This document shows positions 47,222 to 54,160 of a stretch of 64,000 bases of DNA, piece after piece. The stretch lies in the NCBI GenBank assembly GCA_031414935.1, contig JANOQR010000142.1:15638-79637 (forward strand), written 5' to 3'. Made by a program: the position numbers and the translations under genes. The number at the start of each line of letters is the position of its first letter. The first letter of the stretch is position 1. This stretch comes from Luteolibacter sp. (GTDB lineage Bacteria > Verrucomicrobiota > Verrucomicrobiia > Verrucomicrobiales > Akkermansiaceae). The notes beneath the pieces are model-generated. The model made no database searches, was not told where the DNA came from, and saw nothing but the letters and a program-made list of their open reading frames with translations.

Positions 47222-50104
47222 TTATTGGGCTTCATTTGCAAATGCACCACAAACATCACGGAATAGCTCTGCCGTGTCATGCTCTGACATCGCAACAGGA
47301 TTGAGAAGATCGCGGCTCTGCGCTCTTTTACGTTCCATGAGACGGTCAAGCGTAAGATCGAATGAGGTTTTTGAGATCTGCGGATCAGGGTGTTTTGCCA
47401 TCGGCAGACTGACCTGAACGGCTCTTTCCTGACCGATTCGATAGACTCGGTCAGTGCATTGATCTTCGACAGCAGGATTCCACCACCGGTCGAGATGGAT
47501 GACGTTGTTTGCGGCCGTTAGCGTGAGTCCAATGCCTGCGGCACGCGGCGAAAGCAGAATTACGGCAAAGCCTGAGGGCAGTTTCTGAAAGGAATTCACC
47601 ATCGCCTGCCGCCTCGCTCCGGGGACTTCGCCACTGATACATGCTGGAGGTTCCGCGAGGTTGAACTCGGAAGATAACACGACACGCAACCACTTCTGCA
47701 ATCGCCGCGAATCCACAAAAACGAGAGCCTTCTCTCCCCGTGCTTGGATTTCACGGAGAATGCGGAAGCACTCCGTTACGCGAGCTGACGATGTGACGAA
47801 CTTGGAGAGATCGCTGGGTTCTTCATCGTTCATCAGCCAAGGATGAAGTGAAATGGATCGGAACTCGTGTAGTGCTTTGAGCATCGCTCCGCGTTCGCGG
47901 ATACTGCGCGCACGAGCTACGGCATCGTCATAAAGTCGGGCCTGTTCCGGCGGCATGATGGCAGGTGCCATTACTTCGGTTTTTGGAGGTAATCCGTCGA
48001 GAATATCGAGTTTCATACGGCGCAACATTAACGAAAAGCCGTCAGGCTCGGTTAGGTGGACTCGCAGTTCACGAAGGTCGGTATCGCTGGGGCTGGCTTC
48101 AAATTTACTGCTGAATTCTTTCAGTGATCCTCCACCAATCACGGTCAACGCCTCGCGATCCACGGTGTTCACAATGCTCCACAAGTCTGCGTATCGATTT
48201 TCGACAGGTGTGCCTGTCAGCGCGAGCGTGTAGTCTGCATTCATCGCTTTCGCGGCTTCGCTCACTAGCGTTCCCGGCGTTTTGATTTTCTGGGCCTCAT
48301 CAAAGGCAAGGATCTGCCAACGGATCGTAGCGAAGCTATGATGGTAGTCTCTCAAAGTCTCGTAGGTGGTAAGCACCCAACCCGCGCTAGCGATCTCGTC
48401 CGTGCGAAGCGAGACGCCACCGCGTGCAAGATCGTTGCCGCCGTTGCCCGACTTCAGTCGCGCAAGGCCTGCTCCGTAAGCAGCCAGAGGTTTTCCTAGG
48501 AGTCGGCGCCCCGACTCATCAAGGTGGGTTTCGTATTCTTGTTCCCAGTTTTTTAACAAGCCGGTCGGCGCGACGATAAGAAAACCGCCTTCTCCAACAG
48601 CACGTTCGGAATTGGCGTGCCGCAGCCAGAGCAGGAATGCGAGACACTGCAGTGTCTTTCCGAGGCCCATGTCGTCGGCAAGGAGGACGCCACTTCGCCC
48701 ATCTCGCCAAGTATTTTGCAGCCAAAGAAGGCCGGATTCTTGATGAGGCTTGAGCGTGCTTTGCAAGCCGACAGGGAGCCACAGGTCCGTCGAACTGCTA
48801 CGAGCAAAGCGTTGAGTCGCGTCTCCGGACTCATCAAAATCGCGTTCAATCAGCAGCACGGTACGGCCTGCAGGCGTTCGCTGCTCACGTTGAATTTCCT
48901 CTGCCGATATTGTCGAGAGGGATTCCACCGAGCGCAAAGCCTCCAAAGTTTCAGGAGTCGCTGGCACCACTTGCCCGCCGATATCAACCTGCGGTTCTCC
49001 TCGTTCTATTGCTTGCTCGACTTGCCGGATGGCTTGCTCAGTCTCGCTTGCTTTCACGGTTACACGCACACCACCGACTTCGATGCCTACTTCATCGGGC
49101 GGCATCCACGAATTCGCGGGCAGCTTCACCCATGGGATGACCGGAGGATCCCATCTCCCGATGCCTTTCACTCGATCTGACAAATACTGGGGAGTCTCCA
49201 CAAACAGTGATTCCAAGGCCTCTTCCGGCAATAAATCGCCATATTCCGCGCGAAGAAACGCACGAGGATTGCGGAGGAAGGTCGTCTGATCCCCATCGCT
49301 GCGCGTCTGAACTTCGGCGACGAGATCGAGGGCTCGCTGCAAGTCGTCTTCTACAACGAGGTAGTGCGAACCACCGATTGCGTATCGTCCTTTTCCTGCT
49401 TCATGATCGCGAAGAAATGCCGCGTGCTGCTCTGGTGGCAACAACTCAGACGGATGAGTTTCGTCGGTTGGCACGTTCGCATGTAGCACAGGTTCCAGCC
49501 GGAAGCTGCCGTCCTCCACGCGTAGTCGTAGCGAGAATGCTCCCGCGACTGTTACGTGGGTAGCGGCCAGATAGCCGCTGACGTTCACTGACTCTCTTGC
49601 TTGCTCGGAGAGGAAACGCTCGAAGCGGGCGAAGACACGCATCCGCTCTTCCATTGAGTTTCCCATCCCTTTGTTGAGAGAGTCCATGCCGTCGAGCAGT
49701 GAGAAATGCGCGTCACCTAACCGCCAGGATTGAGAACCAGCTTGAACGACGCACCCGATACGGCGGAATGCAATGAGCGGACGCCCATCGTTGAAAAGTT
49801 GGTATTTGAAGTGGAAGTTTGTCTCAGCAAGCGTGCCGTGATGCTGGATACTGAGGCTAAACGGCGAACGTGGCGGCAGACCAAGAGCCCGGGCTTCCGC
49901 CTCCGCGAGTGAGGTGGCATCGGAGTGGGGAAGGAAGAAAGTCGAGCCTTCGTCGCGAACCAATTCGCCGCTGCTTTCTTCGGCAAGTGAGGCGAGCGTG
50001 GCACAGGCAGCACGGAAGCTGCTACTTCCTTCGCTTCCCCATTTTAAAAAATGGCGTGTATTTTCGCGCAGTAGAAATCCTTCGGATGTAAGTTCGTATT
50101 TCAT
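47222..50104 (-). CDS. zorD: ZorD: SNF2-family helicase of type I Zorya
   Basis: 960 aa. SNF2 motifs are [43 protein letters not shown], and [37 protein letters not shown]. 4-nt overlap with the zorC stop. Confidence 0.85.
   Translation of the reverse strand: [960 protein letters not shown]

Positions 50105-54160: not shown

What the first reader, a model, noticed from the sequence alone, without database searches (positions are those of the whole stretch)
47222..54160. Complete type I Zorya (zorA-zorB-zorC-zorD) defence operon
Seen: four minus-strand ORFs (586, 296, 471 and 960 aa) are joined by 4-nt stop/start overlaps. ORF1 has an N-terminal TM helix, MotA/ExbB-like channel helices (NYLVGLGLCFTFLGVVAVI, FGTSLAGVLASVVYSWFF) and then about 330 aa of uninterrupted helical sequence. 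ORF2 has one TM helix with the MotB-type Asp (SLSDLMTGVVFIF) and an OmpA-like peptidoglycan-binding end (GHTDS...NRRVDLRF). ORF4 carries all SNF2 motifs ([49 protein letters not shown]). Established: a MotAB-like pair plus an EH-signature protein plus an SNF2 helicase is the defining architecture of type I Zorya (Doron et al. 2018). Later structural work describes a ZorA5B2 motor whose long ZorA tail signals to ZorC/ZorD. Inference: ORF3 is ZorC by position only. ZorA here looks clearly shorter than the E. coli protein as I remember it (700+ aa), which implies a shorter tail. That matters if tail length is tuned to the envelope, and a PVC-type envelope would be an unusual setting for a peptidoglycan-anchored sensor.
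Basis: partly seen in the sequence, partly recalled or inferred. Interest (0 to 1): 0.8.

Follow-up and report, generated by a model that had tools for sequence, protein, structure and literature searches.

The report
Type I Zorya operon in Verrucomicrobiaceae
This is an intact four-gene type I Zorya anti-phage defence operon, sitting as an accessory cassette next to a housekeeping gene in a Verrucomicrobiaceae genome; it is a divergent but otherwise ordinary member of a well-described system.

Summary
Four minus-strand ORFs (586/583, 296, 471 and 960 aa) are joined by three ATGA overlaps. PADLOC profiles call them ZorA1, ZorB1, ZorC1 and ZorD1 (E = 6e-42, 2e-70, 1e-58, 2e-291). ORF3 has a clear EH_Signature hit, so ZorC no longer rests on position alone. 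Predicted folds of ORF1 and ORF2 match solved ZorA and ZorB best, ahead of TolQ/ExbB and MotB.

The key residues are present: ZorB Asp22, ZorC Glu389/His440, and the ZorD GLGKT and DEAQ motifs.

The features that made the finding look special do not hold up:
- ZorA is shorter than the E. coli protein (729 aa), but its tail is at the median of ZorA relatives.
- The tail is cytoplasmic, so envelope type should not constrain it.
- The host is a Verrucomicrobiaceae bacterium close to Luteolibacter.
- The same operon sits downstream of ppdK in two related metagenome contigs and is absent there in three others.

The cassette has low GC3 and is bracketed by two copies of the ppdK terminator hairpin.

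Minor points of interest are a predicted ~83-residue helical ZorB stalk, built from a 67-aa unit that is triplicated in one relative, and scores below NCBIfam cut-offs.

Verdict: a new member of a known kind, of low to moderate interest.

The parts
52400..54160 (-). zorA. 586 aa from the TTG at 54160, more likely 583 aa from the ATG at 54151. The motor domain (aa 1-205) is 53546-54160. The helical tail (aa 206-586) is 52403-53545.
   Evidence: PADLOC ZorA1, E = 6.2e-42. NCBIfam antiphage_ZorA_1, 122.6 bits, below the cut-off of 190. The AF2 model shows TM1, helices, a beta-hairpin, TM2, TM3 and a long helix. The top 6 Foldseek PDB hits are all ZorA chains. Clade homologues start at the ATG.
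51513..52403 (-). zorB, 296 aa. TM helix with Asp22: 52278-52343. Ala/Glu/Lys-rich helical stalk (aa 43-125): 52029-52277. OmpA-like peptidoglycan-binding domain (aa 131-289): 51537-52013.
   Evidence: PADLOC ZorB1, E = 1.6e-70. Pfam OmpA, 37.8 bits. 8vvn_B ZorB at 6.6e-21, with Asp22 aligned to Shewanella ZorB Asp24 (PMC11890865). The AF2 model has one helix 21-125 followed by an OmpA-like fold. The top Foldseek hit is 8vvn_B.
50101..51516 (-). zorC, 471 aa. The EH-signature domain (aa 229-454) is 50155-50832.
   Evidence: PADLOC ZorC1, E = 1.4e-58. Pfam EH_Signature, 101.2 bits against a cut-off of 27.5. The ZorC profile hits EcZorC 8r68_A as the only PDB match (E = 0.0066) and aligns R324/W328/E389 with Ec R335/W339/E400. 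H440 is nearly invariant.
47222..50104 (-). zorD, 960 aa. N-terminal domain (aa 1-449): 48758-50104. SNF2 ATPase core (aa 450-900): 47405-48757. There is no C-terminal Mrr domain.
   Evidence: PADLOC ZorD1, E = 1.6e-291. Pfam SNF2-rel_dom and Helicase_C. EcZorD 8qy7_A at 1.1e-82, with GLGKT and DEAQ aligned. Some relatives carry Mrr_cat and this protein does not.
54260..54293 (-). Direct-repeat copy 1. This is the rho-independent terminator hairpin of ppdK, directly upstream of the zorA leader (54161-54259).
   Evidence: Terminator scan. 34-nt direct repeat, 31/34 identical. Only two copies occur in the 64 kb window, with 0 expected by chance. Homology with relatives L089, L090 and L091 ends here.
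47177..47210 (-). Direct-repeat copy 2. This is a terminator hairpin 11 nt after the zorD stop codon, and it marks the distal edge of the cassette.
   Evidence: It matches the single ppdK terminator of relatives L089, L091 and L092 at 97% and of L090 at 91%.

Best explanation
The region is an intact, translationally coupled type I Zorya operon (zorA-zorB-zorC-zorD). It is carried as a roughly 7.1 kb accessory cassette inserted at the ppdK terminator of a Verrucomicrobiaceae (Luteolibacter-like) chromosome.

The mechanism is inferred by homology to the E. coli and Shewanella systems.
1. ZorA and ZorB form a ZorA5B2 ion-driven inner-membrane motor.
2. ZorB contributes the essential channel aspartate (Asp22). 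It anchors the complex to peptidoglycan through an OmpA-like domain held on a predicted ~83-residue helical stalk.
3. Envelope perturbation during phage DNA injection releases the motor, and ZorA rotates around ZorB.
4. The signal passes down the cytoplasmic ZorA coiled-coil tail. That tail is ~375 residues, roughly 45-52 nm when scaled from EcZorA.
5. The tail recruits ZorC, a DNA-binding protein with the EH signature (Glu389/His440), and ZorD, an autoinhibited SNF2 ATPase/nuclease (GLGKT, DEAQ 602-605). These degrade the incoming DNA locally.

Shown here: family and fold membership of all four proteins, intact motifs, gene order and coupling, and accessory-island status. Inferred: stoichiometry, ion type, tail and stalk dimensions, the trigger, and anti-phage activity.
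For: - Gene structure and ATGA overlaps.
- PADLOC ZorA1, ZorB1, ZorC1 and ZorD1 are the best hits for the four proteins, far above alternatives. ZorD1 scores 968 bits against 260 for DpdE.
- Pfam OmpA, EH_Signature, SNF2-rel_dom and Helicase_C all exceed their gathering scores.
- PDB sequence hits: ZorD to EcZorD at 1e-82. ZorB to Shewanella ZorB at 7e-21 with the aspartate aligned. ZorA to Shewanella ZorA at 8.5e-6. The ZorC profile to EcZorC, with R335/W339/E400 equivalents conserved.
- Fold: the ZorA model's best six PDB matches are ZorA chains (E 3e-8 to 5e-4, TM 0.57-0.64). TolQ and ExbB score only E >= 3e-3 with TM <= 0.45. The best match of the ZorB model is ZorB 8vvn_B.
- The same four-gene order is seen complete in relatives L001, L002, L093, L094 and L095. 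L091 and L092 end within zorD. It also occurs in type I loci from named genomes of several other phyla.
- Accessory status: zor genes have GC3 of 0.54-0.60, against 0.67-0.73 in the flanking core genes. A duplicated terminator brackets the cassette. The site after ppdK is empty in L089, L090 and a third relative. It is occupied by Zorya in L091 and L092.
- The mechanistic model comes from PMC11946911 and PMC11890865.
Against: - No experiment exists for this operon or its clade.
- It is distant from the characterised systems. ZorA is 16-18% identical to the solved ZorA chains in the structural alignment.
- All NCBIfam Zorya models score below their curated cut-offs: ZorA_1 122.6 against 190, ZorB1 28 against 400, ZorD 344 against 1500, and no ZorC hit.
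- Pfam PF01618 does not hit ORF1.
- The ZorA tail is modelled at low confidence (pLDDT < 50 over much of 229-586), so its geometry is not established.
- ZorD lacks the Mrr nuclease domain present in some relatives. DNA degradation therefore rests on the EcZorD precedent that the SNF2 C-terminal domain is itself the nuclease.
- No convincing promoter was found upstream of zorA.
Confidence: 0.85

Rival explanations
1. ORF1 and ORF2 are a flagellar stator (MotAB/PomAB) or a Tol/Exb-type energiser whose partners lie elsewhere. ORF3 and ORF4 would then be unrelated neighbours.
For: The best NCBIfam hits for ZorB are flagellar MotD, MotB and MotS models (E 1e-24 to 1e-20). The periplasmic domain also resembles MotB peptidoglycan-binding domains in fold. 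TolQ and ExbB appear lower in the ZorA fold search.
Against: - Those MotB-type hits score 72-86 bits against cut-offs of 253-301. The ZorB1 profile scores 236 bits.
- ORF1 has no MotA, TolQ or ExbB hit in NCBIfam or Pfam.
- ORF1 carries a ~375-residue C-terminal helical tail that stators lack. Its model has the beta-hairpin typical of ZorA (PMC12505986).
- All four genes are ATGA-coupled and travel together in at least seven relatives.
Confidence: 0.02
2. It is a genuine Zorya-family cassette but is inactive or repurposed in this host. It could be a decaying remnant, or a system acting on plasmids and conjugation or on envelope stress rather than on phages.
For: - There is no recognisable sigma-70 promoter.
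- It is divergent from all tested systems.
- In four of seven clade members the ZorC signature Glu is replaced by Val, which suggests relaxed or altered constraint in the clade.
- Closest relatives show presence/absence polymorphism at this site.
Against: - All four ORFs are full length with no frameshifts, and every catalytic or signature residue tested is intact in this copy.
- The proteins are conserved over their whole length, including the ZorA tail tip, at 57-92% identity in the clade. That argues for purifying selection.
- Verrucomicrobial promoters need not match the E. coli consensus (my own knowledge).
Confidence: 0.1
3. ORF4 belongs to another SNF2-based defence system (Dpd, DISARM or BREX-associated) and is only adjacent to a MotAB-like pair.
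For: PADLOC DpdE, DrmD and BrxH profiles also hit ORF4 (E 7e-78 down to 1e-15).
Against: - The ZorD1 profile scores 968 bits over residues 17-954, including the ZorD-specific N-terminal domain. The best DpdE score is 260 bits, over the helicase core only.
- The EcZorD N-terminal domain also aligns (query 73-301 to Ec 88-315).
- No other Dpd, DISARM or BREX genes are nearby.
Confidence: 0.01

Closest known systems
E. coli NCTC9026 type I Zorya (EcZorI; PDB 8QYD ZorAB, 8R68 ZorC, 8QY7/8QYC ZorD; Hu et al., Nature 2025, PMC11946911)
   Same: - Same zorABCD order.
- ZorA has three TM helices, a cytoplasmic domain with a beta-hairpin, and a long helical tail.
- ZorB has the channel Asp and an OmpA-like domain.
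- ZorC has the R/W/E/H signature constellation.
- ZorD has an N-terminal domain plus an SNF2 core with GLGKT and DEAQ, and no Mrr domain.

   Different: - ZorA is 583-586 aa against 729. The tail is ~375 residues against 507, so about three quarters of the length.
- ZorB is 296 aa against 246. It has a predicted ~83-residue helical stalk, where the EcZorB peptidoglycan-binding domain is fused to the TM helix without a linker. It has a single periplasmic Cys, so the two EcZorB disulfides cannot form.
- ZorC is 471 aa against 560, and ZorD is 960 aa against 1080.
- Sequence identity is low: 16-18% for ZorA in the structural alignment.
- NCBIfam equivalog scores fall below their cut-offs.
Shewanella sp. 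ANA-3 type I ZorAB (PDB 8VVN; Mariano et al., Nat Commun 2025, PMC11890865)
   Same: It is the best PDB sequence match for both ZorA (8.5e-6) and ZorB (6.6e-21), and the best fold match for ZorB. ZorB Asp24 aligns with Asp22 here. Its ZorB N-terminal helix is longer than in type II.
   Different: Relative to 8vvn_B, the window ZorB has about 47 extra residues between the TM helix and the rest (query 90-285 aligns to 43-241). Its ZorA is 696 aa against 583-586 here. The ion type, reported as Na+ for Shewanella, cannot be assigned here.
Clade of close relatives: one NCBI MAG (GCA_964599325.1, L001) and uncultured metagenome contigs (P0001-P0020; L002, L091-L095)
   Same: ZorA is 57-92% identical and 544-632 aa long, mostly about 583. 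The zorABCD order is the same. ZorC is 472-477 aa and ZorD 954-960 aa. L091 and L092 carry the operon at the same site after ppdK.
   Different: - Genomic contexts differ in L001, L002, L093 and L095.
- ZorB is 293-310 aa in most members but 434 aa in L002, from a triplicated 201-nt unit.
- The ZorC signature Glu is Val in L001, L002, L093 and L095 but Glu here.
Flagellar stator MotAB/PomAB and the TolQR and ExbBD 5:2 motors
   Same: They share the 5:2 motor superfamily fold of the membrane core, a channel Asp in the B subunit, and (for MotB and PomB) an OmpA-like peptidoglycan anchor.
   Different: They have no long cytoplasmic tail, no ZorC or ZorD partners, and much weaker profile and fold scores.

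Membership tests
Type I Zorya | ZorA: a MotA/ExbB-superfamily membrane protein with a long C-terminal helical tail | tested here: met
   PADLOC ZorA1 at 6.2e-42. The AF2 model shows TM1, a beta-hairpin, TM2, TM3 and a long helix. The top 6 PDB fold hits are ZorA chains. Residues 206-532 contain no proline.
   ORF1 has no PF01618 hit at E <= 0.01. Zorya-specific profiles and the fold match take its place, so this lowers nothing essential.
Type I Zorya | ZorB: a single TM helix with the conserved channel Asp, plus an OmpA-like peptidoglycan-binding domain | tested here: met
   PADLOC ZorB1 at 1.6e-70. Pfam OmpA at 37.8 bits against a cut-off of 27.2. Asp22 aligns with Shewanella ZorB Asp24. The fold matches 8vvn_B.
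Type I Zorya | ZorC: an EH_Signature domain protein with the signature Glu and His | tested here: met
   PF15611 at 101.2 bits against a cut-off of 27.5. PADLOC ZorC1 at 1.4e-58. E389 aligns with EcZorC E400, and R324/W328 with R335/W339. H440 is nearly invariant. Its equivalence to Ec H443 is inferred from position only.
Type I Zorya | ZorD: an SNF2-family ATPase with Walker A and a DEAQ box, plus the ZorD N-terminal domain | tested here: met
   PADLOC ZorD1 at 1.6e-291, covering residues 17-954. Pfam SNF2-rel_dom and Helicase_C. EcZorD 8qy7 at 1e-82 with both domains aligned.
Type I Zorya | Co-directional zorA-zorB-zorC-zorD order in one operon | tested here: met
   The four ORFs are consecutive on the minus strand with ATGA overlaps. 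Terminator hairpins lie before zorA and after zorD.
Type I Zorya | NCBIfam (PGAP) Zorya models reached at their curated cut-offs | tested here: not met
   ZorA_1 scores 122.6 against 190, ZorB1 28.3 against 400 and ZorD 344 against 1500, with no ZorC hit. These are narrow models (three equivalogs and one subfamily). The shortfall reflects divergence from the E. coli type, not absence of homology.
Type I Zorya | ZorA5B2 stoichiometry and ion-driven rotation | not testable with these tools
   Only single-chain prediction was available. This needs a multimer model or cryo-EM.
Type I Zorya | Anti-phage protection that depends on all four genes | not testable with these tools
   Experimental only. 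The precedent is in PMC11946911 and PMC11890865.
Flagellar stator MotAB | MotA/MotB equivalog-level similarity and a flagellar gene context | tested here: not met
   MotB, MotD and MotS models score 72-86 bits against cut-offs of 253-301. ORF1 has no MotA model hit. No flagellar genes were found among the window ORFs scanned.

The most novel reading that the evidence does not exclude
In this verrucomicrobial Zorya clade, the ZorB periplasmic stalk is built from a modular helical unit of about 67 residues. Most members, including this window, have about one copy, and L002 has three. Copy number would then set how far the peptidoglycan-binding domain reaches from the inner membrane, at roughly 10 nm per unit if the unit is straight. 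On this reading it is the stalk, not the cytoplasmic ZorA tail, that is tuned to envelope geometry. The clade would be a natural experiment on how the distance between anchor and membrane gates Zorya activation.
Probability: 0.2. Interest if true: 0.5.

Novelty: new member of a known kind. Interest (0 to 1): 0.25.

Why it matters
It extends well-supported type I Zorya to Verrucomicrobiaceae, with a copy distant enough from the E. coli and Shewanella models that NCBI's curated family models would miss it.

It also offers three small handles for people who study Zorya:
- A ZorA tail about three quarters of the E. coli length. This turns out to be the family norm, so E. coli is the long outlier.
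- A ZorB with a long helical stalk of modular length, whereas the EcZorB peptidoglycan-binding domain is fused directly to the TM helix.
- A clean presence/absence polymorphism at one chromosomal site, the ppdK terminator, among close relatives. This is useful for dating gain and loss of the cassette.

None of this changes the current picture of how Zorya works.

Tried and rejected
- **Exact look-up of the ZorC protein.** It is not on record.
- **Genome-collection scan with ZorD.** It returned only relatives at 45% identity or less, from many phyla. The window's own genome was not found, so taxonomy had to come from source names on PPDK and RNase H-like homologues.
- **Two metagenome scans** (ZorC alone, then the ZorA alignment). 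They gave nothing and one 2.2 kb fragment.
- **A clade-only ZorA profile against the PDB.** It lost the ZorA hits and found only coiled-coil noise. The fold search was used instead.
- **The 188-aa RNase H-like gene just downstream of zorD as a Zorya accessory.** Rejected. It is a core gene, 85-92% identical in thousands of clusters; the few with source names are Verrucomicrobiota. It sits in unrelated neighbourhoods and is absent next to zorD in relatives.
- **An empty-site test through that gene.** It failed because synteny is not conserved there. The test worked through ppdK instead.
- **The 227-nt repeats flanking the L001 cassette as IS3-type transposase remnants.** This was a resemblance from memory. 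Pfam gives only E = 0.11 to a transposase HTH, so it is not supported.
- **The sigma-70 promoter scan.** It found no more sites than in shuffled sequence. The one site near zorA overlaps the start codon, so it is uninformative.
- **The short ZorA tail as an oddity.** Rejected by the length survey.
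Full report
**1. Observation**

They are 52400-54160 (586 aa), 51513-52403 (296 aa), 50101-51516 (471 aa) and 47222-50104 (960 aa). 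Each junction is an ATGA stop/start overlap, the usual sign of translational coupling. All quoted peptide motifs are present at defined positions.

One correction is needed. The TTG at 54160 comes straight after a stop codon. The close homologues begin at the equivalent of the ATG three codons further in (MIASL.../MGFSL...). ZorA is therefore probably 583 aa.

Other ORFs in the interval, on both strands, overlap the zor genes and were not examined further. I take them to be the overlapping ORFs common in GC-rich coding DNA (inference).

**2. Identity of the four proteins**

- **PADLOC profiles.** ZorA1 (6.2e-42), ZorB1 (1.6e-70), ZorC1 (1.4e-58) and ZorD1 (1.6e-291, 968 bits over residues 17-954) are the best hits. 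Type II and III ZorA/ZorB profiles and the DpdE, DrmD and BrxH profiles score far lower.
- **Pfam.** It gives OmpA in ORF2, EH_Signature in ORF3 (101 bits, cut-off 27.5), and SNF2-rel_dom plus Helicase_C in ORF4. There is no PF01618 hit in ORF1.
- **PDB sequence searches.**
  - ZorD matches EcZorD 8qy7 at 1e-82, with both its N-terminal domain and its SNF2 core aligned.
  - ZorB matches Shewanella ZorB 8vvn_B at 6.6e-21, with Asp22 on the Shewanella Asp24 position (PMC11890865).
  - ZorA matches 8vvn_C at 8.5e-6.
  - ZorC alone finds nothing. A 13-sequence ZorC profile finds EcZorC 8r68_A as the only PDB hit (E = 0.0066). It puts window R324, W328 and E389 on Ec R335, W339 and E400, the published signature network.
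- **Fold tests.** An AlphaFold2 model of ZorA has a confident motor domain (pLDDT 63-91 over about 10-225). Its order is TM1, cytoplasmic helices, a beta-hairpin, TM2, TM3 and a long helix. Its six best PDB matches are all ZorA chains (E 3e-8 to 5e-4, TM 0.57-0.64). TolQ and ExbB follow only from E = 3e-3 with TM of 0.45 or less. A single-sequence ZorB model matches ZorB 8vvn_B best.

The stator or Tol/Exb alternative and the 'ORF3 is not ZorC' alternative are therefore refuted.

The curated NCBIfam Zorya models are all missed. ZorA_1 scores 122.6 against 190, ZorB1 28 against 400 and ZorD 344 against 1500, and ZorC has no hit. This copy is a divergent member that standard NCBI annotation would probably leave unnamed.

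**3. Is the short ZorA unusual?**

EcZorA is 729 aa with a cytoplasmic tail of residues 223-729, about 70 nm long. Tail truncations abolish defence, and tail lengths across Zorya types have already been surveyed (PMC11946911).

I searched the motor domain (aa 1-260) against 1.84 billion representative proteins. It found 1,435 relatives at E <= 1e-3. Among the best 150, the number of residues beyond the motor has a median of 329-334. The window has 326, which is the 42nd percentile.

In eleven type I loci from named genomes, ZorA is 575-763 aa (one further entry, L012, is a 258-aa fragment). In the window's own clade it is 544-632 aa, mostly 583.

The tail is therefore shorter than in E. coli but typical of the family, and E. 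coli is near the long end. Scaled from EcZorA, about 375 residues give roughly 45-52 nm (inference). Because the tail is cytoplasmic, envelope type should not constrain it.

**4. The part that does face the envelope**

In EcZorB the peptidoglycan-binding domain is fused to the TM helix without a linker. The window's ZorB has an Ala/Glu/Lys-rich segment between the TM helix and the OmpA-like domain.

The model predicts one continuous helix over residues 21-125 (pLDDT about 80). That is an ~83-residue stalk, about 12 nm if straight (the length is inference).

Compared with Shewanella ZorB there are about 47 extra residues. Within the clade ZorB is 293-310 aa. L002 is the exception at 434 aa, where a 201-nt (67-aa) unit is present three times at 94-96% identity.

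Similar spacers occur in Shinella, Microvirga and an alphaproteobacterial MAG, but not in five other loci. One PADLOC ZorB1 profile of 293 positions aligns almost collinearly, so long-stalk ZorBs are already in the databases. This is a variation within the known family, not a new architecture.

**5. Host and genomic setting**

- **Host.** PPDK next to zorA is 95% identical to a protein named 'Verrucomicrobiaceae bacterium' and 86-91% identical to Luteolibacter proteins. The 188-aa RNase H-like protein downstream is 85-92% identical to thousands of clusters; the few with source names are Verrucomicrobiota. A 1308-aa protein hits the 'PVC-type heme-binding CxxCH' models: TIGR02604 at 109 bits, just under its cut-off of 122, and TIGR02603 at 69.3 against a cut-off of 68.15. 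The PVC guess is right.
- **Envelope.** From my own knowledge, Verrucomicrobia have ordinary peptidoglycan, so a peptidoglycan-anchored sensor is not out of place.
- **Distribution.** Type I loci were also found in Alphaproteobacteria, Accumulibacter, Polyangiaceae, Bryobacterales, Rhodothermales and Longimicrobiales.

**6. Accessory cassette**

- The zor genes have GC3 of 0.54-0.60. The flanking genes have 0.73 (ppdK), 0.67 (rho) and 0.68 (RNase H-like).
- A 34-nt terminator hairpin occurs exactly twice in the window, with 0 copies expected by chance. One copy follows ppdK (54260-54293) and the other follows zorD (47177-47210), 7,083 bp apart.
- In relatives L089 (PPDK 95% identical) and L090 (a Luteolibacter MAG), nucleotide homology runs from rho through ppdK and its single terminator and then stops. 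No Zorya follows. A third relative also lacks it.
- In L091 and L092 the same rho-ppdK-terminator junction is followed by zorABC(D). The flank is 83-88% identical but the zor genes only 74%.
- The cassette itself contains no integrase or transposase.
- The duplicated hairpin could be a footprint of insertion or a substrate for precise loss. I cannot tell which.
- L001 carries the cassette elsewhere, flanked by a 227-nt direct repeat at 88% identity. I could not establish the nature of that repeat.

**7. Mechanism**

By homology (PMC11946911, PMC11890865) the most likely mechanism has five steps.
1. ZorA and ZorB form a ZorA5B2 ion-driven motor, anchored to peptidoglycan by ZorB.
2. Envelope perturbation at phage entry activates it.
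3. ZorA rotates around ZorB.
4. The signal passes along the cytoplasmic tail.
5. DNA-binding ZorC and the autoinhibited SNF2 nuclease ZorD are recruited locally and destroy the incoming DNA.

What is shown here is membership, intact key residues and operon integrity. Everything dynamic is inferred. ZorD lacks the Mrr_cat domain that relatives L006, L009 and L026 have. In this it resembles EcZorD, whose SNF2 C-terminal domain is itself the nuclease. The ion type could not be assigned.

**8. Verdict**

The identification is correct and complete. The features proposed as remarkable (short tail, PVC envelope) are either typical or not relevant to the part of the machine they were attached to. This is a new, divergent member of a known kind, of low to moderate interest.

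The most novel reading still open is that the modular ZorB stalk tunes the reach to peptidoglycan. I give it a probability of about 0.2.

Noticed in passing
window 16445-21186 (+): A 933-aa ORF overlaps by 4 nt with a 647-aa N6/N4 DNA methyltransferase. The 933-aa ORF has no Pfam hit and only a weak NCBIfam BPTD_3080 restriction-endonuclease hit (1e-7). The methyltransferase hits PADLOC MTase_III at 1.5e-47. This is probably a restriction-modification pair, about 26 kb from the Zorya operon.
   Followed up: partly
window 46523-47089 (-): A 188-aa RNase_H_2-superfamily protein (3'-5' exonuclease-like) lies 132 nt downstream of zorD. It is a very widespread core gene, 85-92% identical in thousands of clusters (those with source names are Verrucomicrobiota), and sits in varied neighbourhoods. 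It is not part of the cassette.
   Followed up: yes
window 57315-59237 (-); also L089, L091 and one relative held without DNA: Transcription terminator Rho is fused to an N-terminal dephospho-CoA kinase (CoaE) domain. The fusion is conserved in these relatives. L090 (the Luteolibacter MAG) has a 442-aa Rho call without the CoaE part.
   Followed up: no
L002 4106-4706 (within zorB): Three tandem copies of a 201-nt unit (94-96% identical) expand the ZorB stalk to give a 434-aa protein. The window has about one copy of the unit. An assembly artefact cannot be excluded.
   Followed up: partly
ZorC of L001, L002, L093 and L095 (position equivalent to window ZorC E389): The signature Glu is replaced by Val in four of seven clade members. 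It is Glu in the window, L091 and L092. The equivalent EcZorC E400 is essential in E. coli.
   Followed up: partly
L001 305-531 and 7937-8163: A 227-nt direct repeat (88% identical) brackets the related zorABCD cassette in a different genome. Its origin is unexplained. It has no Rfam hit and only a non-significant transposase-HTH resemblance.
   Followed up: partly
L006 (Rhodothermales MAG) 9818-17733: zorA, zorB and zorC are on the opposite strand to zorD, so they converge on it instead of following the usual co-directional order. This ZorD carries a C-terminal Mrr_cat nuclease domain, as do the ZorDs of L009 and L026.
   Followed up: no
window 22228-26154 (-) and 3026-8611 (-): Two large proteins. 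The first is 1308 aa with DUF7133, HEAT repeats and a C-terminal heme-binding domain (the 'PVC-type heme-binding CxxCH' family). The second is 1861 aa with NHL repeats and a beta-helix.
   Followed up: no
window 54161-54259 (-): The 99-nt leader between the ppdK terminator and zorA has no convincing sigma-70 promoter or Shine-Dalgarno sequence. This leader and the first ~150 nt of zorA are not alignable with L091/L092, although both flanks are homologous.
   Followed up: partly
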